Shown here: positions 7,877-53,792 of the stretch, one piece after another
How the letters are laid out: the number at the start of each line of letters is the position of its first letter
Position numbering within the stretch: position 1 is the stretch's first letter
Assembly (NCBI GenBank): GCA_963798915.1
Contig: CAWCVB010000005.1
Span: forward strand, 25,291 to 89,290
Source: an uncultured Gemmatimonadales bacterium
Lineage (GTDB): Bacteria; Gemmatimonadota; Gemmatimonadetes; Gemmatimonadales; GWC2-71-9
Direction of reading: 5' to 3'
Length of the DNA stretch: 64,000 nt
Notes under the pieces: model-generated
Database searches by the model: none
Told to the model about the DNA's origin: nothing
The model's input: the letters and a program-made list of their open reading frames with translations, nothing else
Program-made: the position numbers and the translations under genes

Positions 7877-7960
7877 AATGAGTCGAGGGTCAAGGGTCAA
7901 GGGTCGCGGGTCGGAGCTGCGCCATGGCTCTGTCCGTACAAGGCTCGGGGTGGCTCCGGA

Positions 7961-8200
7961 GCTGTCATCCCGAGCGCAGCGAGGGATCTTGCCCGCCGTG
8001 CTTCGGAGCCGGTTGAGTAGATCCTTCGCTTCGCTCAGCTGTCATCCCGAGCGCAGCGAGGGATCTTGCCCGCCGTGCTTCGGAGCCGGTTGAGTAGATC
8101 CTTCGCTTCGCTCAGCTGTCATCCCGAGCGCAGCGAGGGATCTTGCCCGCCGTGCTTCGGAGCCGGTTGAGTAGATCCTTCGCTTCGCTCAGGATGACAG
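7961..8200. repeat. Three identical 77-bp tandem units of a TGTCATCC...GGATGACA palindromic element
   Basis: Units start at 7961, 8038 and 8115; only the last carries the closing GGATGACA. Confidence 0.95.
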
Positions 8201-8209
8201 ATATTGTCT

Positions 8210-8285
8210 CCGACGACCGACGACCGACGACCGACGACCGCACGACCGCCGACCGACGACCGACGACCGACGACCGACGACCGCC
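8210..8285. repeat. Heptamer array (CGACGAC)n; C-rich partner of the GGTCRAG/GGTCGCG arm at 7880-7913
   Basis: About 10 units read directly. Confidence 0.9.
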
Positions 8286-8350
8286 GAGCCGCCGAGCCAA
8301 CGAGCCGCCGCAACCCTACATTGAACCTTTCCTTCTTCCGGAGACCCGCC

Positions 8351-20358: not shown

Positions 20359-20631
20359 GCGAAATCTCCAGGATTGAAGGGACGCGGGACAAGATCGTGC
20401 GTCCCTGTCACTACTGAAGTGGTCTCGGGGTCTCCATCCAGCGACGGCTTTGCAACGAACTCTTGACAGGCGACGGTCGAGGAATCCCATCCCAGGGGTG
20501 TCTTGGCGAGCGTCGTCTCGGCGTCTCGCCGTCTCGGCGTCTCATCTTCCAGCCGTCGGTCCGACCCGCCCATCCTGCCCATCCCGCCCGTCCCGCCCTA
20601 TCTTTATGGCCATCTCCCACCCAGGCCCCAC

Positions 20632-23600
20632 ATGGCTGAGCTCCTCGAGCGGCTTCAGGCAGCACTCGGCGACAGCTTCCGCATAGAGCGGGAGCTGGGC
20701 GGCGGGGGCATGAGCCGTGTCTTCCTGGCGGAAGAGTCGCGGCTGGGCCGCCGGGTGGTGATCAAGCTGCTCCCGCCCGAGGCTGCCGAAGGGATCCCGG
20801 CCGACCGGTTCGAACGTGAGGTCAAGGTCGCCGCCTCGCTGCAGCATCCCCACGTCGTGCCGGTGCTGAGCGCCGGCGTCTCCGATGGGCTCCTGTATTA
20901 CATCATGCCCTACATCGACGGCGAGTCGCTCGCCGCCCGGCTCGCCCGGGTGGGCGCGCTGCCGGTGGGCGAGGCCATCCGCATCATCCGCGACATCGCA
21001 GACGCCCTGGCCTACGCCCATGGTCGCGGCGTGGTGCACCGCGATATCAAGCCCGACAACATCATGCTGGCCGGGCGCCATGCACTGGTCACCGACTTCG
21101 GCGTCGCCAAGGCGGTGAGTGCATCGGTCAACCGGAGCATGGGGCTCACCACCGGCGGCGTGACCATCGGCACGCCCACCTACATGGCGCCGGAGCAGGC
21201 GGCGGCCGATCCCAACCTGGATCATCGCGCCGATATCTATGCGCTGGGTGTGGTGGCGTACGAAATGCTCAGCGGGCGGCCGCCCTTCATGGCGCCCACG
21301 GCGCAGGGCATGCTCGCAGCCCATGTGACCCAGACCCCCGATCCGGTGAGCGCGCACCGCCAGACCATTCCGCCGGACGTGTCGCAGATCGTGATGCGCT
21401 GCCTGGAAAAACATCCGGCCGATCGCTGGCAGAGCGCGGCGGAGCTGGGCGAGAAGCTGGAGATCGCAACCACGCCTTCGGGTGGCATACCCTCCGTCCC
21501 CACCGAACCGGTGCAGGCAGTGCGGGCCCAGGCGGAGCGCTCGGTGCGACGGGCGCATCCCATGCGGGTGCTGGCGCTGTTTGCCTTGGCCACCGCGGCC
21601 GTCACCGCCGGCGCCTTCGGGCTCACCCGGCTCTTTGGATTGGCCGACTGGGTCTGGATCGGCGCGCTTGGCTGCATGCTGCTGGGCCTGCCGGTGCTGC
21701 TCTATACCGGCCGCCTGGAGCGCCAGCGCGCCATCCTCAAGGCCACCGGCGCGTTTCGCTACGAGCCGGAGCCGGCGCACCAGCAGTTCTTCACCTGGCG
21801 CCGGGCCCTGTGGGGCGGCGCATTCGCACTGGGCGCCCTGCTCCTTGCTACGGTGGCGTTCGGCGTCTCCCGGCATTTCGGCGTCGGCCCAGGCGCGACG
21901 CTGCTGAGCGCGGGCACGCTTGGCAGCCAGGACCGGCTCGTGCTCGCCGACTTTTCCAACCACACGTCCGACTCGACGCTGTCCGCATCGCTGGCGGAAG
22001 CGCTGCGGGTGGACCTGGGGCAGTCGAACGTCGTGCGATTGGTGAATCAGCAGGAGATCAATGCGACGCTGCAGCGGATGGGACAGGAGCCGGGCGGCCC
22101 GCTATCCGAAACAGTAGCGCGTGACGTGGCTCGGCGCGCCAATGCCAAGGCCATTGTCTCGGGTGATGTCTCGCCGCTGGGCACGGGGTACGTGCTCACG
22201 GCCCGGCTGGTGTCGGTCGATGGAGCGACCCTGGCGCCGGTGCGTGAAACGGCGGAGAGCGACGCCGAGCTGATTCCGGCGCTCAACCGGCTCTCGAAAT
22301 CGCTGCGGGAAAAGATCGGCGAATCGCTGCGAACCATTCGCCGCAGTGATGCGCTGGAGCAGGTGACGACGGCATCGCTGCCGGCGCTCGAGCTGTATTC
22401 CCGGGCGGAGCGCGCCTTCGAGAGCAACGACTACACGACCGCGCGCGACCTGCTGACACGCGCGGTACAGACCGACAGCAGCTTTGCGATGGCATGGCGG
22501 AAGCTGGCCGTGGTGATCAACAACATGGCCGGCAGCTCGTCGCAGCAGCGCGCCGCGGCGACGGCGGCATTCAATCACCGCGACCGGCTGCCGCCGCTGG
22601 AGCGCGCGCTGTCGGAGGCGTATTTCTACACCAACGTCCAGTTCAAGCCGGAACAGGCGACGCGTGCCTATCAGCGGGCACTGGACGTGGACTCGCTGAA
22701 CCCCGTGGCCATCAACAACCTGGGATTGCTGTACAACAGGCTGGGCGACTTCGCCAGTGCGGAGACGATCCTGCGGCGCGGGATGCGGCACGAGCCCGCC
22801 CTCACCATGTTCGACAACATGAATCAGGCGCTGCTCTCACAGGCCAAGTATGCCGCGGCCGACAGCGTGCTGGAGCAGCTTCGGGCCCGGGCGCCCGATG
22901 CACCGCTTACGGTCATTAACCTTGCCTACGCAGCATCGGTCAAGCGTGACTATGAGACCGTTGATTCCGTCCTCCGGCCGTTGTCGACCGGAGCCAACCC
23001 AGACCGGATTGCGCAGCTCGTCCGGTCCAATGTCTTCGAGGTGCACGGGGAACTGCGCACCATTGACACGCTCTTCGCCACGATGGCCGGCAAACTGCTG
23101 GCCGAAGGAGACTCGTCGCTCGCCGCCGGCGTGTTGCTGGCCGAGCCGAGCCACGATCTGGTGCAGCGCGGGCAACCTGAGCGTGGGCTCGCAAGCCTAG
23201 ATTCGCTGGAGCACTCGCCGCTCTTCACCTCGCTGCGGAGCGTCGACCGCCCGCTCCTCGGTCTGGCGGAACTTGAGGTGCTGCTCGGCCGTGCCCAGGA
23301 GGTCCGGAAACTGCGCGCGGAATGGGAACGCGCCGTTCCGCCCGAAGAGCGCACGCCCTGGCAGGCGCCGCGATGGGATGCCCTGGTGGCCGGGGCGGAA
23401 GGGCGCTGGAAGGATGCGGCGGCCGCGCAGACTCGCGCGGTGGCCACAGCCCACTGCGCGCCCTGCGGCCGCCACTTCATTGCGCAGGCGTGGGACCGCG
23501 CCGGCGTCAGCGACTCGGCGCTCAAGTACTATGACCTGGCCGCCAACCTGCCGAACACCGACAATGAAGGCGTGGAAGACGCAATCTGGCAGCCCTCCGC

Positions 23601-23766
23601 CCTGCGCCGCCTCGGCGAGCTGTACGAAGCCAGAGGTGAACGTCAGAAGGCGCTGGATTACTACGGCAAGTTCGTGGCGTTATGGAAAAATGCCGATGCC
23701 GACTTGCAGCCGCAGGTGACGGAGGTGAAGGCGGCGATGGCGAAGCTGGCGGGGGAGGGGAGGTAG
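20632..23766 (+). CDS. Hanks-type Ser/Thr protein kinase with TM segments and C-terminal TPR region
   Basis: ELGGGGMSRV, HRDIKPDN, DFG, GTPTYMAPE, DIYALG; three hydrophobic stretches; TPR-like helices. Confidence 0.93.
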   Translation: MAELLERLQAALGDSFRIERELGGGGMSRVFLAEESRLGRRVVIKLLPPEAAEGIPADRFEREVKVAASLQHPHVVPVLSAGVSDGLLYYIMPYIDGESLAARLARVGALPVGEAIRIIRDIADALAYAHGRGVVHRDIKPDNIMLAGRHALVTDFGVAKAVSASVNRSMGLTTGGVTIGTPTYMAPEQAAADPNLDHRADIYALGVVAYEMLSGRPPFMAPTAQGMLAAHVTQTPDPVSAHRQTIPPDVSQIVMRCLEKHPADRWQSAAELGEKLEIATTPSGGIPSVPTEPVQAVRAQAERSVRRAHPMRVLALFALATAAVTAGAFGLTRLFGLADWVWIGALGCMLLGLPVLLYTGRLERQRAILKATGAFRYEPEPAHQQFFTWRRALWGGAFALGALLLATVAFGVSRHFGVGPGATLLSAGTLGSQDRLVLADFSNHTSDSTLSASLAEALRVDLGQSNVVRLVNQQEINATLQRMGQEPGGPLSETVARDVARRANAKAIVSGDVSPLGTGYVLTARLVSVDGATLAPVRETAESDAELIPALNRLSKSLREKIGESLRTIRRSDALEQVTTASLPALELYSRAERAFESNDYTTARDLLTRAVQTDSSFAMAWRKLAVVINNMAGSSSQQRAAATAAFNHRDRLPPLERALSEAYFYTNVQFKPEQATRAYQRALDVDSLNPVAINNLGLLYNRLGDFASAETILRRGMRHEPALTMFDNMNQALLSQAKYAAADSVLEQLRARAPDAPLTVINLAYAASVKRDYETVDSVLRPLSTGANPDRIAQLVRSNVFEVHGELRTIDTLFATMAGKLLAEGDSSLAAGVLLAEPSHDLVQRGQPERGLASLDSLEHSPLFTSLRSVDRPLLGLAELEVLLGRAQEVRKLRAEWERAVPPEERTPWQAPRWDALVAGAEGRWKDAAAAQTRAVATAHCAPCGRHFIAQAWDRAGVSDSALKYYDLAANLPNTDNEGVEDAIWQPSALRRLGELYEARGERQKALDYYGKFVALWKNADADLQPQVTEVKAAMAKLAGEGR

Positions 23767-23768
23767 GG

Positions 23769-23872
23769 GACGGCGAGACGGCGAGGCGGCAAGACGGCGA
23801 GGCGGCGAGTTGGCTAGTTGGCTAGTTGGCTAGTCGGCGAGAGGGCGAGTTGGCAAGACGGCAAGTTGGCGG
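23769..23872. repeat. 8-bp tandem array, 13 units (GACGGCGA/GTTGGCTA type); left arm of four-helix cassette 1
   Basis: Counted directly; begins 3 nt after the kinase stop. Confidence 0.92.
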
Positions 23873-23882
23873 CGCTGGTCCA

Positions 23883-24239
23883 TCATGGCGCACTCCGGAT
23901 GCTTCGGTGAAGGCCCCAGAGCAGGCGGCCGACTTCGTCGCACTCATTGAGCAGGCTACCGTCGCTCATTCGGGCATATTCGAGATCGCTCGCCAGCCTG
24001 AGCATGTACTCCACTTCCGCGTGCGACCCCGCAGCGATGTCGAGATAACGACGGAATTCCTTTGACCCTCTCTTGGCCGAGCCCTCGGCCACATTTGCTG
24101 CAATGGAGACCGCGGCGCGCCGAATCTGCGATGTGAGCCCAAATCGCTCGTCAGGAGGCCAGGCCTTCGAGACGGCGTAAATGCGCAGTACCAGCTGATG
24201 CGCCTTCTGCCACACGAGGAGGTCGAGATACGAAGCCAT
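23883..24239 (-). CDS. Four-helix-bundle protein (23S rRNA intervening-sequence protein / Avd-like family)
   Basis: YLDLLVWQKA..ERFGLTSQIRRAAVSIAANVAEG..EFRRYLDIAAGS..E family signature; 118 aa. Confidence 0.93.
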   Translation of the reverse strand: MASYLDLLVWQKAHQLVLRIYAVSKAWPPDERFGLTSQIRRAAVSIAANVAEGSAKRGSKEFRRYLDIAAGSHAEVEYMLRLASDLEYARMSDGSLLNECDEVGRLLWGLHRSIRSAP

Positions 24240-24319
24240 CCCCTAAGATGCCGTCTGCCGCGGTGACCTGGGTATCATTCTCGTGCAGGCCATACCCATG
24301 TCGCGCATTGCCTGGCCGC

Positions 24320-24443
24320 TCGCCGACTTGCCAACTCGCCGTCTTGCCGTCTCGCCGTCTCGCCGTCTCGCCGTCTTGCCGTCTTGCCGTCTCGCCGTCT
24401 CGCCGTCTCGCCGTCTCGCCGTCTCGCCAACTAGCCGCCTAGC
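24320..24443. repeat. 8-bp tandem array, 15 units (TCGCCGTC/TTGCCGTC); right arm of cassette 1, reverse complement of 23769-23872
   Basis: Counted directly. Confidence 0.92.
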
Positions 24444-24730
24444 TCCCCTCCCGCCCTCCTCAAAAACCGCTCCGCCAACTGCTCCAGCCGTTCGTCGTGT
24501 CTTTCCCGTGCGTCCGCCAGGATGATTTCCACTTGAGGTATGAGTTCCGGCGTGCCGAAGGCATAGCCGGTCGCAGCTTCGGCGCCGAGCGAGTCGCCGA
24601 CGTTGGCGCCATCGAGCAGCGCACGCGCGGCGGCGAGCGGAAAGGCAGGGTCGTCCCGCTGGGGCAGGGGATAGCGATGTTCGGGCTGGGCTTCCCCCGC
24701 CGCGTCGTCGTTTACGAATGCTCGGGACAT
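24431..24730 (-). CDS. Hypothetical protein, 99 aa
   Basis: Open frame with GC-typical codons; MSRAFVNDD start; -10-like CATCTT 6 nt before the ATG. Confidence 0.6.
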   Translation of the reverse strand: MSRAFVNDDAAGEAQPEHRYPLPQRDDPAFPLAAARALLDGANVGDSLGAEAATGYAFGTPELIPQVEIILADARERHDERLEQLAERFLRRAGGELGG

Positions 24731-24856
24731 GAGAAAAAGATGGGCAGGATAGGCGGGATGGGCCAGATGGGCGGGGGGCGAGACGGCTGGTTGGCTCAAG
24801 CCGTCATCGCGGCATTCTCACGCGGCTAACCGCCATCACCGGAGAACTGCTTCAAC

Positions 24857-25025
24857 ATAGAGACGCAGAGGACGCGGAGGCACACAGAGGGCTCCTGGTG
24901 CCGAGCTTCTCCGCTTGCCGGGCTCAGTTCACAAAGGTTTTTGTGGGTGCCCGGCTGAGACCCGGATTCTAAGGCCTCTCACGGAGCACTCCGCGTCCTC
25001 TGTGCCTCCGTTCCTCTGTGTTAAA
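24857..25025. repeat. Inverted pair of ~9-bp purine/pyrimidine arrays (GACGCAGAG.../...CTCTGTG) enclosing ~90 bp
   Basis: agagacgcagaggacgcggaggcacacagagg versus ctccgcgtcctctgtgcctccgttcctctgtg. Confidence 0.75.
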
Positions 25026-25119: not shown

Positions 25120-25250
25120 TTTCGTCTCGCCAACTCGCCAACTCGCCAACTCGCCAACTCGCCAACTCGCCAACTCGCCAACTCGCCAACTCGCCCTCTC
25201 GCCGTCTTGCCGTCTCGCCGTCTCGCCGTCTCGCCGCTTGCCGCTTGCCG
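25120..25250. repeat. 8-bp tandem array (TCGCCAAC)8 followed by TCGCCGTC units
   Basis: Same family as the cassette 1 arms. Confidence 0.92.
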
Positions 25251-44700: not shown

Positions 44701-44785
44701 TGCCTAGCCGTCTCGCCGTCTCGCCGTCTCGCCGTCTCGCGGTCTCGCCGTCCAGCCGTCTAGCCGTCTCGCCGTCCAGCCGTCT
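44701..44785. repeat. 8-bp tandem array (TCGCCGTC/CAGCCGTC), ~10 units
   Basis: Read directly. Confidence 0.9.
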
Positions 44786-48194: not shown

Positions 48195-48850
48195 TCCAGG
48201 GGGCCGCTGAAGCGGGCAAGTTCAGCGCCTTCGTGGTGACCTCGCTCTGGGTGCACGGGCCGTGGTCGCCCCTGCTGCCGGCCGCCTACGAGCCGGTGCT
48301 CATGCTCTACGGCAAGTGGTACCCGCCCTGGCTCGTCGCGGTCACCGGTGCCACGCTGAGCTGCATCGTCGAGTGGATCAACTACCGGGTCTACGACTGG
48401 ATCTCCGACCTCAAGCGGCTGGAAAACCTCAAGCACAAGGCCACCAGCGGCCGCTTTGTGCGGCTGTTCCAGAAGCAGCCCTTTCTGGTGGTCTGGATCT
48501 TTGCCTGGTCTCCGCTGCCCGACTGGGCCGCGCGGATCATGAGTGTGATCGCGGGCTACTCGATCTGGCGCTATGTGCTGGCGTTCTGGCTGGGAAGGCT
48601 GCCCAAGTTTCTCTTTCTCGCCTGGCTGGGCCAGAAGCTCCCACTCACGGCGCTGCAGCTCACCATCATCGCCGTGGCGGCAGTGATCGTGGGGTATGGG
48701 TGGGGATGGTGGAGGCGACGGGATGGGCGAGATGGGCAGGATGGGCGGATGGGCGGATGGGCAGGATGGGCGAGATGGGCAGGATGGGCGAGATGGGCAG
48801 GATGGGCGAGATGGGCAGGATGGACGGGGTGGGCAGGTCTCACGTTCTGA
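48191..48850 (+). CDS. VTT/DedA-like (SNARE-associated) membrane protein; C-terminus encoded by a repeat array
   Basis: GTGA overlap; SPLPDW..Y..AFWLGRLPKF; tail GWARWAGW comes from the nonamer array. Confidence 0.65.
   Translation: MIQGAAEAGKFSAFVVTSLWVHGPWSPLLPAAYEPVLMLYGKWYPPWLVAVTGATLSCIVEWINYRVYDWISDLKRLENLKHKATSGRFVRLFQKQPFLVVWIFAWSPLPDWAARIMSVIAGYSIWRYVLAFWLGRLPKFLFLAWLGQKLPLTALQLTIIAVAAVIVGYGWGWWRRRDGRDGQDGRMGGWAGWARWAGWARWAGWARWAGWTGWAGLTF
48722..48837. repeat. 9-bp tandem array, ~13 units (GATGGGCAG/GATGGGCGA); left arm of four-helix cassette 2
   Basis: Counted directly; two units are 8 bp. Confidence 0.92.
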
Positions 48851-49193
48851 GTGACCGATACAGCAGCCATGTGACTCGACCTGCGGCATCGCGGGCTGCT
48901 TCAATTGCTTGCCAGTCCGCCTCTCTGAGGAAGCCCAGATCTCGGGCAAGTTCCAGCTGGTAGCTGACCTCAGAGAGCGATCCGAGTGAGATGTCGAGAA
49001 ACCGGCGGAATTCCGCCTTTCCGCGCTTCGCGGATCCTTCGGCTATGTTCGTGGGCGCAGAGGCTGCTGCACGGCGTATTTGTGCCGTCAGCCCGTAGCG
49101 TTCGGTGGCGGGCCAAATCTCGGTCGCCCGATAGATCGCCAGCGCCAGTTCGTGACAGCGCTGCCACGCGATCAAGTTCTTGTATCGTTTCAT
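48840..49193 (-). CDS. Four-helix-bundle protein (23S rRNA IVS / Avd-like family), second paralog
   Basis: YKNLIAWQRC..ERYGLTAQIRRAAASAPTNIAEG..EFRRFLDISLGSLSE; 117 aa. Confidence 0.93.
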   Translation of the reverse strand: MKRYKNLIAWQRCHELALAIYRATEIWPATERYGLTAQIRRAAASAPTNIAEGSAKRGKAEFRRFLDISLGSLSEVSYQLELARDLGFLREADWQAIEAARDAAGRVTWLLYRSLRT

Positions 49194-49256
49194 GCTGCCA
49201 AGATCGCGGGTCGTTCGCTCCTGCCGAGCATCGAAATGCTTCACCTCGTACCAATC

Positions 49257-49346
49257 CTGCCCATCCCGCCCATCTCGCCCATCTCGCCCATCCCGCCCAT
49301 CCTGCCCATCCTGCCCATCCCGCCCATCCCGCCCATCTCGCCCATC
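49257..49346. repeat. 9-bp tandem array, 10 units (YYGCCCATC); right arm of cassette 2, reverse complement of 48722-48837
   Basis: Counted directly; ends 3 nt from the thrE stop. Confidence 0.92.
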
Positions 49347-49349
49347 CTC

Positions 49350-53700: not shown

Positions 53701-53792
53701 GGTTAGTTGGCGAGTTGGCTGGTTGGCGAGTTGGCGAGTTGGTTAGTTGGCTAATTGGCGACCGTCGACCGTCGACCGTTGACCCTCGACCC
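53701..53792. repeat. G-rich 8-mer array (AGTTGGCG) followed by C-rich heptamers (ACCGTCG)
   Basis: Read directly, immediately upstream of ptrB. Confidence 0.85.

What the first reader, a model, noticed from the sequence alone, without database searches (positions are those of the whole stretch)
23769..24443. Four-helix-bundle (Avd/23S-IVS-like) gene enclosed by long inverted 8-mer tandem arrays: candidate new element
Seen: a lone 118-aa four-helix-bundle gene lies between 13 units of a GACGGCGA-type repeat and 15 units of its reverse complement. The cassette fills the gap between two convergent stop codons and could fold into a ~100-bp stem with the ORF in the loop. Known: this family includes ORFs carried in the hairpin intervening sequences of some 23S rRNAs and resembles Avd, the pentameric RNA-binding partner of DGR reverse transcriptase. 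There is no rRNA, RT, TR/VR pair or transposase in the window. Inference: this is a repeat-flanked cassette whose protein may bind, process or spread its cognate repeat, for example a ring oligomer wrapping repeat RNA. Solo arrays of the same 8-mer occur at 20515, 25120, 44701 and 53701.
Basis: partly seen in the sequence, partly recalled or inferred. Interest (0 to 1): 0.88.

Follow-up and report, generated by a model that had tools for sequence, protein, structure and literature searches.

The report
Four-helix gene inside repeat-array hairpin
A small, conserved gene of unknown function sits in the loop between two mirror-image runs of an 8-base repeat, and this packaged unit behaves like a mobile cassette whose repeat arms match the short repeats scattered through the same genome.

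Summary
A 118-aa PF05635/TIGR02436 gene (23883-24239, minus) lies between an 8-mer array (23769-23871) and its reverse complement (24315-24428), exactly filling the gap between two convergent stop codons. The scan has noted this layout before on other DNA (180 notes, 171 genomes). No paper I could search describes it outside 23S rRNA intervening sequences.

- All 8 family genes of this genome are enclosed this way. They are the only protein-coding cargo of matched inverted arrays 300-800 bp apart.
- Arms and gene are duplicated, inherited and horizontally transferred together. Repeat period and unit sequence track the protein tree.
- Each genome's dispersed arrays match the arms of its own cassettes.
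- Strict arrays were 0 in 461 kb sampled from five related genomes that lack the gene.
- One recent paralog sits in a hairpin of the same unit that relatives keep empty.
- The G-rich arm comes first on both strands (70 vs 3).
- Arm mismatches show no RNA wobble bias, and RNase III was not found in 40 of 41 genomes of the order.

Best reading (0.5): a selfish, IVS-type hairpin cassette that spreads at the DNA level among cognate array hairpins. What the protein does biochemically is untested.

The parts
23769..23871 (+). Left arm on the + strand, which is the 3' arm in the sense of the gene. It is an 8-mer tandem array of GACGGCGA type with GAGTTGGC/TAGTTGGC variants, about 12 units. It starts 3 nt after the kinase stop.
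23883..24239 (-). Four-helix-bundle gene, 118 aa (PF05635 / TIGR02436). The model has four helices with mean pLDDT 94.2. The closest solved structures are 2GSC and 2RLD.
24240..24314 (-). Leader of 75 nt between the 5' arm and the ATG. It holds a small hairpin and no sigma-70-like promoter.
24315..24428 (+). Right arm on the + strand, which is the 5' arm (G-rich, GACGGCGA) in the sense of the gene. It is 14.4 units of GCCGTCTC, the reverse complement of the left arm.
20503..23766 (+). Flanking gene: Ser/Thr protein kinase with TPR repeats. It is convergent with the 122-aa ORF and conserved in 9 congeners.
24431..24799 (-). Flanking 122-aa ORF with no Pfam or NCBIfam family, conserved at 79-82% nt identity in congeners. 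It lies upstream of the cassette gene and in the same orientation, so read-through could supply transcription.
48719..49347 (-). Second cassette of the same kind in the window. The arms are 9-mers, at 48719-48837 (GATGGGCAG type) and 49254-49347 (its complement). The PF05635 ORF is 48840-49244.
44706..44785 (+). Free array of the focal unit (GCCGTCTC, 9.9 units). Others lie at 20514-20543, 25126-25235 and 53704-53761.

Best explanation
The locus is one copy of a selfish, horizontally transferable cassette with this layout: [G-rich tandem-array arm] - leader of about 75 nt - PF05635 four-helix-bundle gene - [complementary C-rich arm]. It is the free-standing counterpart of the ORF-bearing intervening sequence of 23S rRNA.

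**Shown here**
- The arms belong to the cassette. They are duplicated with the gene, and their period and unit are co-inherited with the protein, even across phyla.
- The protein is under purifying selection.
- The same intergenic slot is occupied, emptied or re-occupied by different elements in sister species.
- The dispersed 7-9-mer arrays of a genome match the arms of its own cassettes.
- Such arrays were not seen in relatives that lack the gene.

**Inferred**
- Within a genome the cassette spreads at the DNA level. It is copied by host homologous recombination or gene conversion, through its two arms, into hairpins made of the same unit.
- Free hairpins and solo arrays are arm-only derivatives or targets of such cassettes.
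- The gene has no promoter of its own and is transcribed by read-through from the gene upstream.
- The protein, an Avd-like oligomer, acts on the repeat arms by binding or protecting them. It is not itself a recombinase.
For: - **All copies enclosed.** 8 of 8 PF05635 genes of the genome lie between inverted arrays, with 419-452 bp between the arms. All 7 inverted-matched array pairs 300-800 bp apart hold such a gene.
- **Specific to this gene.** MITE-like palindromes have arrays on both sides in only 4 of 19, 9 of 59 and 14 of 265 copies.
- **Relatives.** 25 of 29 best loci from other genomes of the order have at least 5 inverted shared 8-mers in their flanks. Two of the 4 misses have truncated flanks.
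- **Across phyla.** The figure is 58 of 73 loci against 37 of 380 shifted control windows. At 8 or more shared 8-mers it is 45 of 73 against 8 of 380.
- **Duplicated as a unit.** Three paralogs, 92-93% identical, share homology from the outer edge of one arm to the outer edge of the other and no further. Their dN/dS is 0.11-0.30.
- **Co-inheritance.** Both arms have the same period in 75 of 78 cassettes. The nearest protein neighbour in another genome has the same period in 68 of 75; 2000 shuffles gave a mean of 55.8 and a maximum of 66. Unit distance falls with protein identity, from 3.34 to 2.06 for 7-mers, and 0 of 500 permutations reached this.
- **Own units.** Units of the 8 own cassettes match 24.75 free arrays each. 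Units from 7 congeneric cassettes match 1.29, and units from 61 other cassettes match 0.70.
- **Reciprocal pattern counts** in G000/G001/G004/G005/G007: focal unit 70/0/0/0/1; G001 unit 0/148/5/0/0; G004 unit 15/22/176/2/11.
- **Genomes without the gene.** Strict arrays number 0 in 461 kb from five PF05635-less relatives, against 11.1 per 100 kb here.
- **Dose within the genus.** Array density at matched loci rises with gene count (Spearman 0.75, n = 9).
- **Cognate target.** The paralog at C10:106494-107076 differs from its paralogs by dS 0.07-0.14. It sits where G001, G002 and G005 have an empty hairpin of the same GGTCRAC unit, although the flank gene has dS 0.79-0.91.
- **Turnover.** At the focal site G001 has a different PF05635 cassette in the opposite orientation. 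G004 and G008 have the G001-type arms around palindromic elements. G006 has an empty hairpin.
- **Expression context.** No promoter-like site was found. The upstream neighbour is co-oriented in 81 loci against 15, from crude calls.
Against: - No step of movement was observed. There are no target-site duplications, no recombinase and no reads (one search listed no run).
- Only 1 of 6 sites examined shows a cognate empty hairpin in relatives. That unit family makes up about 7% of arrays (59 of 802), so a chance match is not excluded. Loss of the ORF in the sister lineage plus gene conversion among paralogs would also fit.
- Cassette-bearing genomes G031, G032 and G033 showed no free arrays in 80-120 kb. 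The gene is therefore not sufficient for dispersed arrays.
- Clear arms are missing in 15 of 73 loci. In the metagenome set, 36 of 68 testable loci fall under my arm-alignment threshold.
- The arms are not strictly mirrored. One copy has 17 units of GGTCAAC against 5 units, mostly GGTCGAC.
- The protein's role is inferred from fold only.
- Proteins 70-73% identical carry units that differ at 2-3 of 8 positions, so strict sequence recognition is doubtful.
- Kin are not independent in the across-genome counts.
- The gene calls behind the orientation count are crude; the focal locus itself was mis-called.
Confidence: 0.5

Rival explanations
1. Protein-driven repeat system, like REPIN-RAYT. The PF05635 oligomer would itself be the agent that lays down, extends and disperses the 7-9-nt arrays, working with a host polymerase. 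The arrays would then be its product rather than passive relics. The cassette would be the single-copy 'master' and the free arrays its dependants.
For: - Strict arrays were seen only in genomes with the gene: 0 in 461 kb from 5 gene-less relatives.
- Array density rises with gene count within the genus.
- Genome-specific unit families match the resident cassettes.
- Repeat period follows the protein clade. Among 38 metagenome relatives of the focal 8-mer cassette with arrays on both sides, 13 have period 8 or 9.
- The G-rich strand runs 5'->3' towards the centre in 70 of 73 cassettes and 38 of 40 empty hairpins. This is what synthesis at 3' ends would leave.
- The protein is under purifying selection and has Avd-like fold.
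Against: - No polymerase or reverse transcriptase partner was found; RVT_1 gave 0 matches.
- G031, G032 and G033 have cassettes but no free arrays in the samples.
- Near relatives of the protein carry different units.
- Several abundant array families of this genome have no cassette in the assembly, for example GCTGAAG with 36 arrays.
- No biochemical data exist.
Confidence: 0.2
2. A purely RNA-level device, as in 23S rRNA intervening sequences. The arms would pair in a read-through transcript, a double-strand-specific RNase would cut the stem, and the gene's mRNA would be released while the host transcript is little harmed. The arms would have no role in movement.
For: - The RNA stem of about 110 bp is very stable (z = -15.4).
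- No promoter was found.
- The upstream gene is usually co-oriented (81 vs 15).
- In Coxiella the IVS around a homologous ORF has tandem heptamers in its 5' region, and RNase III cuts at the start of the first repeat (PMC4990558; abstract and passages read).
Against: - The RNase III domain was not found in 40 of 41 genomes of the order. The one hit is on a 1.5-kb contig. tblastn with that protein finds nothing in this genome.
- Arm mismatches show no wobble bias in the sense of the gene: 84 GU-type against 80 AC-type.
- One recent copy has A-C mismatches in every unit.
- This reading does not explain the genome-wide cognate arrays.
Confidence: 0.12
3. Host hairpins with passive cargo. Inverted arrays would be ordinary host features of gene ends, such as terminators or 3'-end protectors. 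The PF05635 gene, like the palindromic elements, would merely land in their loops.
For: - 42 empty inverted pairs exist in this genome, many between convergent genes.
- Palindromic elements and RAYT-type genes use the same slots.
- G004 and G008 keep the arms seen around the G001 cassette but with other loop content.
Against: - Cassettes carry arms in genomes with no free arrays.
- Period and unit follow the protein tree, also across phyla.
- Gene-less relatives have no such arrays.
- Paralogs share their arms.
- The consensus scan placed no hairpin-plus-U-run terminator at the arms; its single terminator-like hit lies inside the ORF.
Confidence: 0.1
4. A remnant of a diversity-generating retroelement, with the gene being its Avd.
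For: There are weak matches to bAvd and to the Avd equivalog. The fold resembles Avd in 8UB8 and 4DWL (TM 0.72-0.80).
Against: - Both Avd models score below their cut-offs: 26.3 against 40, and 23.7 against 80.
- No reverse transcriptase was found in the genome.
- There are 8 dispersed copies, each alone between host genes.
Confidence: 0.02

Closest known systems
ORF-bearing intervening sequence (IVS) of 23S rRNA (Coxiella burnetii helix 45; also Leptospira, recalled)
   Same: A PF05635-family ORF is enclosed by terminal inverted repeats that form a stem. In Coxiella the 5' region holds tandem heptamers (GACAGAT) whose copy number varies between strains. That element is regarded as selfish and horizontally acquired (PMC4990558; abstract and passages read).
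   Different: - Here the cassette is not in rRNA but between protein genes.
- The arms are about 100 bp of 8-mers rather than a 28-bp stem.
- There are 8 copies per genome.
- The same units are dispersed genome-wide.
- The RNase III that excises IVSs was not found in this order.
REP / REPIN - RAYT systems
   Same: A gene is flanked by inverted copies of a short repeat that is also dispersed through intergenic regions. Repeat families are genome-specific and tied to the resident gene. In G004 and G005 the slot of the second window cassette holds a REP-flanked Y1-transposase gene instead.
   Different: - The gene is a 118-aa helical bundle without a HUH/Y1 domain.
- The repeats are tandem 7-9-mers, not 20-40-nt palindromes.
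- This genome also has a separate, ordinary REP-RAYT set that is not array-flanked.
Intergenic heptamer arrays of Xanthomonas (GGGAATC) and Nostoc/Anabaena (GGGGAYT), Rehm et al. 2015
   Same: These are G-rich 7-nt tandem arrays in intergenic DNA. In Xanthomonas, 70-75 occur as convergent inverted pairs that can form stem-loops (PMC4692102, passages read). This matches the G-first polarity found here.
   Different: That paper names no associated gene: 'four helix' and 'hypothetical protein' each occur 0 times in it. Here there are many unit families of 7, 8 and 9 nt, and each cassette carries its own.
Avd, accessory protein of diversity-generating retroelements
   Same: The four-helix-bundle fold is shared (TM 0.72-0.80 to 4DWL and 8UB8). 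Avd is part of an RNA-protein complex according to the entry titles. The two closest solved relatives were deposited with five chains each.
   Different: The Avd models score below their cut-offs. Identity is 12-14%. There is no reverse transcriptase.

Membership tests
PF05635 / TIGR02436 (23S rRNA-IVS protein, 'four helix bundle protein') | Score above the curated cut-off of the family model over its whole length | tested here: met
   PF05635 scores 123.1 bits (cut-off 33.8) over profile positions 2-105 of 106. TIGR02436 scores 117.4 bits (cut-off 24).
PF05635 / TIGR02436 | Four-helix-bundle fold like the solved members | tested here: met
   The model has mean pLDDT 94.2 and four helices. Foldseek gives TM 0.82-0.89 to 2GSC and 0.79-0.84 to 2RLD. 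phmmer gives E = 6.4e-21 to 2GSC.
DGR accessory protein Avd | Score above the cut-off of the Avd models | tested here: not met
   NF033474 scores 23.7 bits (cut-off 80). PF22296 scores 26.3 bits (cut-off 40).
DGR accessory protein Avd | Adjacent reverse transcriptase with a template/variable repeat pair | tested here: not met
   RVT_1 gave 0 matches in the genome, which is 84.8% complete. A TR/VR pair was not searched for.
23S rRNA intervening sequence | Inserted in a helix of the 23S rRNA gene | tested here: not met
   No Rfam family reaches its gathering score anywhere in the window. The flanks are a kinase gene and a 122-aa ORF.
23S rRNA intervening sequence | ORF of this family enclosed by terminal inverted repeats that pair into a stem | tested here: met
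   A stem of about 110 bp closes the ORF, z = -15.4.
23S rRNA intervening sequence | Excision of the stem-loop from the transcript by RNase III | not testable with these tools
   No RNA data were available; no run was listed. The enzyme itself was not found: PF14622 matched 1 of 41 genomes and PF00636 matched 0 of 10. tblastn found nothing.
REP/REPIN-RAYT | Gene encodes a Y1 (HUH) transposase | tested here: not met
   No such domain is in the protein. The Y1_Tnp genes of the genome lie elsewhere.
REP/REPIN-RAYT | Gene flanked by inverted copies of a repeat that is dispersed in the same genome and specific to it | tested here: met
   The focal unit occurs 70 times here against 0, 0, 0 and 1 in four congeners.
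Transposon / MITE with terminal inverted repeats | Transposase, and target-site duplications at the ends | tested here: inconclusive
   There is no transposase domain. By eye, no duplication is seen at the outer arm edges of the three paralogs, but the arrays abut the flanks and would hide short ones.
Intrinsic terminator | Short GC-rich hairpin followed by a run of U | tested here: not met
   The consensus scan finds none at the arms. The single terminator-like hit lies inside the ORF.
Anti-phage defence families (PADLOC) | Match to a model of a known or candidate defence protein | tested here: not met
   0 families matched for two cassette proteins.

The most novel reading that the evidence does not exclude
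PF05635 proteins would be the trans-acting factor of a so far unrecognised kind of self-propagating element. An Avd-like oligomer without an enzyme domain would direct host enzymes to lay down and spread short G-rich tandem repeats, with a telomere-like polarity pointing at the cassette. That would make this protein family the long-missing cause of the intergenic heptamer (STRR-type) arrays of many bacteria. It would also make 23S rRNA intervening sequences one special landing site of the same element.
Probability: 0.2. Interest if true: 0.92.

Novelty: new variant of a known kind. Interest (0 to 1): 0.78.

Why it matters
PF05635/TIGR02436 is a very large family with solved structures and no known function. 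Intergenic heptamer arrays have been described for decades without a cause. The ORFs inside 23S rRNA intervening sequences have never been explained.

The data here tie the three together as one cassette design. They also add constraints that any mechanism must meet:
- arms and gene are co-inherited;
- each genome's dispersed arrays match its own cassettes;
- no such arrays were seen in relatives that lack the gene;
- the G-rich arm comes first on both strands;
- arm mismatches show no wobble bias;
- the cassette persists in a lineage where RNase III was not found.

If the protein proves to act on the repeats, this would be a new way for a small non-enzymatic protein to propagate DNA. It would also offer a handle on rapid turnover of intergenic regions.

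Tried and rejected
- **Sequencing runs:** none was listed for 23300-24900, so there was no read-level test of inversion, excision or RNA ends.
- **Metagenome pattern:** an exact 28-nt pattern from the kinase end found 0 stretches.
- **Known families:** Rfam gave nothing in the window. PADLOC gave nothing.
- **Promoter scan:** no sigma-70-like promoter in 23600-24600.
- **Leaders:** the leaders of the 8 cassettes each fold into a hairpin, but I saw no shared sequence motif.
- **Gene fragments:** tblastn with all collected family proteins against the genome, with the 8 genes masked, gave only noise (best E = 0.03).
- **First array-density sample:** with a loose filter it was noisy. I replaced it with a stricter filter and more DNA.
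- **Gene caller:** my own caller covered only 51% of the genome. Its count of array orientation after stop codons (G-rich 94, C-rich 53) was therefore not used.
- **Arrays near Y1 transposase genes:** the five genes have 1, 2, 4, 2 and 0 arrays within 5.3 kb, against a random mean of 1.2. None is array-flanked, so RAYT as the cause of the arrays was set aside.
- **DGR reading:** rejected, because there is no reverse transcriptase and the Avd models score below their cut-offs.
- **Alignment A1:** it was too diverse for the search for related loci. A four-sequence alignment was used instead. This biased that sample towards one protein clade with 7-mer arms.
Full report
**1. What is there**

ORF 23883-24239 on the minus strand encodes 118 aa. 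It matches PF05635 (123.1 bits, cut-off 33.8) and TIGR02436 (117.4 bits, cut-off 24). The Avd models stay below their cut-offs.

The AlphaFold model has four helices and mean pLDDT 94.2. It is closest to 2GSC (TM 0.82-0.89) and 2RLD, and then, at 12-14% identity, to Avd in 8UB8 and 4DWL (TM 0.72-0.80) (by sequence).

Tandem Repeats Finder places 11.8 units of GACGGCGA at 23769-23862, running on to 23871, and 14.4 units of the reverse complement at 24315-24428. The arms start 3 nt after the kinase stop and end 3 nt before the stop of a conserved 122-aa ORF.

As RNA the arms pair over about 110 bp around the ORF (-368.7 against -293.7 kcal/mol for shuffles, z = -15.4). No sigma-70-like promoter lies inside. 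The 122-aa ORF upstream has the same orientation.

The window has no Rfam family. The genome is 84.8% complete and has no RVT_1 match.

**2. Is it more than chance in a repeat-rich genome?**

The genome (3.3 Mb, 17 contigs) has 802 arrays of period 6-10 with at least 3 copies. It has 8 PF05635 genes, all intact.

All 8 lie between inverted arrays, each with its own unit: an 8-mer, a 9-mer and several 7-mers.

Of 787 adjacent array pairs, 68 are 300-800 bp apart. Seven of these are inverted matches and all 7 hold a PF05635 gene, with 419-452 bp between the arms. The 8th gene has degenerate arms.

Beyond that range, matched inverted pairs around ordinary genes are rare: 5 of 77 at 800-1500 bp and 3 of 134 at 1500-3000 bp.

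Three families of palindromic MITE-like elements are far less tied to arrays. Both sides carry arrays in 4 of 19, 9 of 59 and 14 of 265 copies, against 2 of 2000 random windows. No gene fragments of the family lie elsewhere.

**3. Elsewhere**

I did not test this. Titles of related records are consistent with it.

In 41 genomes of that order, 36 have the gene. Of the 29 best loci from other genomes, 25 show at least 5 inverted shared 8-mers in their 300-bp flanks, and two of the four misses have truncated flanks. Most have TRF arrays with reverse-complementary units, each unit different.

One scan of named genome records gave 80 loci. They came from Acidobacteriota, Planctomycetota, Cyanobacteria, Bacteroidota, Proteobacteria, Firmicutes, Patescibacteria and one archaeon.
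- 73 of the 80 had full flanks.
- At least 5 inverted shared 8-mers: 58 of 73, against 37 of 380 shifted control windows in the same loci.
- At least 8: 45 of 73, against 8 of 380 (Fisher p about 1e-33).

A metagenome set seeded with the focal protein was weaker. Of 68 testable loci out of 80, 32 passed my arm-alignment threshold and 38 had arrays on both sides.

One locus (L028) and one genome in these tallies come from G023, which is flagged unpublished.

**4. The arms belong to the cassette**

- **Paralogs.** Three paralogs in this genome (92-93% nt identity) are homologous from the outer edge of the 5' array through leader and ORF to the outer edge of the 3' array, and not beyond. Their dN/dS is 0.11-0.30.
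- **Period.** Of 112 cassettes with usable flanks, 78 have arrays on both sides. The period is 7 in 66, 8 in 10, and 9 and 10 once each. The two arms share the period in 75 of 78.
- **Period follows the protein.** The nearest protein neighbour from another genome has the same period in 68 of 75; 2000 shuffles gave a mean of 55.8 and a maximum of 66.
- **Unit follows the protein.** Among 7-mers the unit distance falls from 3.34 to 2.06 as protein identity rises, and 0 of 500 permutations reached this. Pairs across phyla are included, for example a betaproteobacterial and a Chitinophaga cassette at 67% identity whose units differ by one base.
- **Near relatives of the focal cassette.** Its nearest relatives, at 70-73% identity, carry 8-mers that share a GACGG core.

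**5. The dispersed arrays are cognate to the resident cassettes**

Units of the 8 own cassettes match on average 24.75 free arrays exactly. Units of 7 congeneric cassettes match 1.29, and units of 61 others match 0.70. In all, 318 of 691 free 7-9-mer arrays match an own unit within one mismatch.

Pattern counts in G000/G001/G004/G005/G007:

| Unit from | G000 | G001 | G004 | G005 | G007 |
|---|---|---|---|---|---|
| G000 (focal) | 70 | 0 | 0 | 0 | 1 |
| G001 | 0 | 148 | 5 | 0 | 0 |
| G004 | 15 | 22 | 176 | 2 | 11 |
| G005 | 6 | 104 | 12 | 25 | 0 |

G001 has its own cassette next to matches of the G005 unit.

With a strict filter (period 7-9, at least 4 copies, at least 80% matches) I found 0 arrays in 461 kb from the five relatives without the gene. 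This genome has 11.1 per 100 kb, G024 has 19.8 and G026 has 10.0. However, G031, G032 and G033 also gave 0 in 80-120 kb, although they carry 8, 4 and 2 gene matches.

Within the genus, at loci orthologous to four G000 cassette sites, array density rises with gene count (Spearman 0.75, n = 9; kin are not independent).

**6. Turnover at orthologous sites** (9 congeners)

None of the six G000 cassette sites examined holds the same cassette in a congener.

- **Focal site.** G001 has a different PF05635 cassette, in the opposite orientation and with other arms. G004 and G008 keep G001-type arms around palindromic elements. G005 has other arms and a palindrome. G006 has a short empty hairpin. G009 has only a palindrome.
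- **Site of the paralog at C10:106494-107076.** G001, G002 and G005 have an empty hairpin of the same GGTCRAC unit. The flank gene differs by dS 0.79-0.91, whereas the paralogs differ by 0.07-0.14. The copy is therefore much younger than the shared hairpin, unless gene conversion keeps the paralogs alike.
- **Site of the second window cassette.** G004 and G005 hold a REP-flanked Y1-transposase gene, decayed in G002. G004 keeps the C-rich 9-mer array on one side.
- **Elsewhere.** Hairpins of other units, nested arrays or nothing were found.

**7. Constraints on mechanism**

- **Polarity.** On either strand the first arm is G-rich and the second C-rich. This holds in 70 against 3 cassettes, 26 against 5 in the metagenome set, and 38 against 2 of the 42 empty inverted pairs in this genome. 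Rehm et al. describe the Xanthomonas pairs as 'convergent', which is the same polarity (PMC4692102, passages read).
- **No wobble bias.** In 75 arm alignments there are 84 GU-type and 80 AC-type mismatches in the sense of the gene. I see no sign of selection on an RNA stem of one strand.
- **RNase III not found.** PF14622 matched 1 of 41 genomes, on a 1.5-kb contig of G038. PF00636 matched 0 of 10 genomes of the genus. tblastn with the G038 protein found nothing in this genome. The same family searches hit 8 of 14 control genomes. Rho is present.
- **Orientation.** The upstream neighbour is co-oriented in 81 loci and opposed in 15, with 21 undetermined. Tandem contexts split 54 to 11, and a divergent context occurs once. 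These come from crude ORF calls that mis-called the focal locus.

**8. Reading**

Shown:
- a discrete cassette of arms plus gene that is duplicated, exchanged between sites and transferred between lineages;
- a protein under purifying selection;
- dispersed arrays that are cognate to resident cassettes and were not seen without them.

Inferred:
- copying into hairpins of the same unit by host recombination through the arms. This fits the replacement of the whole loop, the arm-to-arm extent of homology, the opposite orientations seen at one site, and the lack of any recombinase.
- read-through expression.
- a nucleic-acid-binding role for the protein.

The polarity is unexplained. One possibility is that a long C-rich single-stranded 5' arm is avoided because it would load Rho. 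Another is that the arrays are laid down by synthesis at 3' ends pointing to the centre. Both are speculation.

**9. Known or new?**

Six searches of the held literature found the Coxiella IVS paper (abstract and passages read) and the Xanthomonas/Nostoc heptamer paper (passages read). They also found mentions of PF05635 as Avd-like in DGR surveys (PMC10053308, passages read). None described this gene family between inverted tandem arrays outside rRNA. Subscription journals are largely outside that library.

The scan itself holds 180 earlier notes of the layout in at least 171 genomes. I re-tested the cross-phylum claim myself. A look-up for notes on RNase III absence or arm polarity returned none that held all the words.

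Noticed in passing
whole genome G000 and 40 relatives: The RNase III domain was not found in 40 of 41 genomes of the order. PF14622's only hit is on a 1.5-kb contig of G038, and PF00636 matched 0 of 10 genomes in the genus. tblastn with the G038 protein finds nothing in G000. Several of these genomes are 98-100% complete with 3-10 contigs.
   Followed up: partly
window 48719-49347: A second PF05635 cassette lies here, with 9-mer arms (GATGGGCAG type and its complement) around ORF 48840-49244 (minus). At the same site G004 and G005 hold a REP-flanked Y1-transposase gene, and G009 holds another ORF between palindromic elements.
   Followed up: yes
G000:C2:384349-384693 and four other places: There are five Y1_Tnp (PF01797) matches. 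The best is flanked by REP-like palindromes (GCGGCTGAAAGCCGCG and GAGTCGCCCTGCGGGCGACTC types), which makes it an ordinary REP-RAYT set separate from the tandem arrays.
   Followed up: partly
window 7960-8192, flanked by arrays 7882-7913 and 8210-8287: A 77-bp unit is repeated three times without mismatch. It contains a GTCATCCCGAGCGCAGCGAGGGATC-type palindrome. Related palindromic elements (starting GTCATTCCCGCG..., GTCATTGCGAGG..., GTCAYCCTGAGG...) fill many hairpin loops in this genome and its congeners.
   Followed up: partly
G000 genome-wide: The third most common array family, GCTGAAG (36 arrays), has no cassette in this assembly. It resembles the loop of the REP palindrome (GGCTGAAAGCC).
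   Followed up: no
G000:C10:14836-15206: This paralog has lost its stop codon (TAG to CAG). The ORF runs on into its own 3' array.
   Followed up: no
arms of related cassettes in G000, G001, G004: The 8-mer units of the three most closely related cassettes share a GACGG core with three variable bases (GACGGCGA, GACGGTTA, GACGGCTG). Many 7-mer units of this genome share GGTC. This was seen by eye only.
   Followed up: no
loci L091-L095 (site of G000:C7 cassette in congeners): The arrays are nested. An outer CACGAAAG/CTTTCGTG pair encloses inner arrays of other units or a palindromic element, as if new hairpin elements land in the loops of older ones.
   Followed up: no
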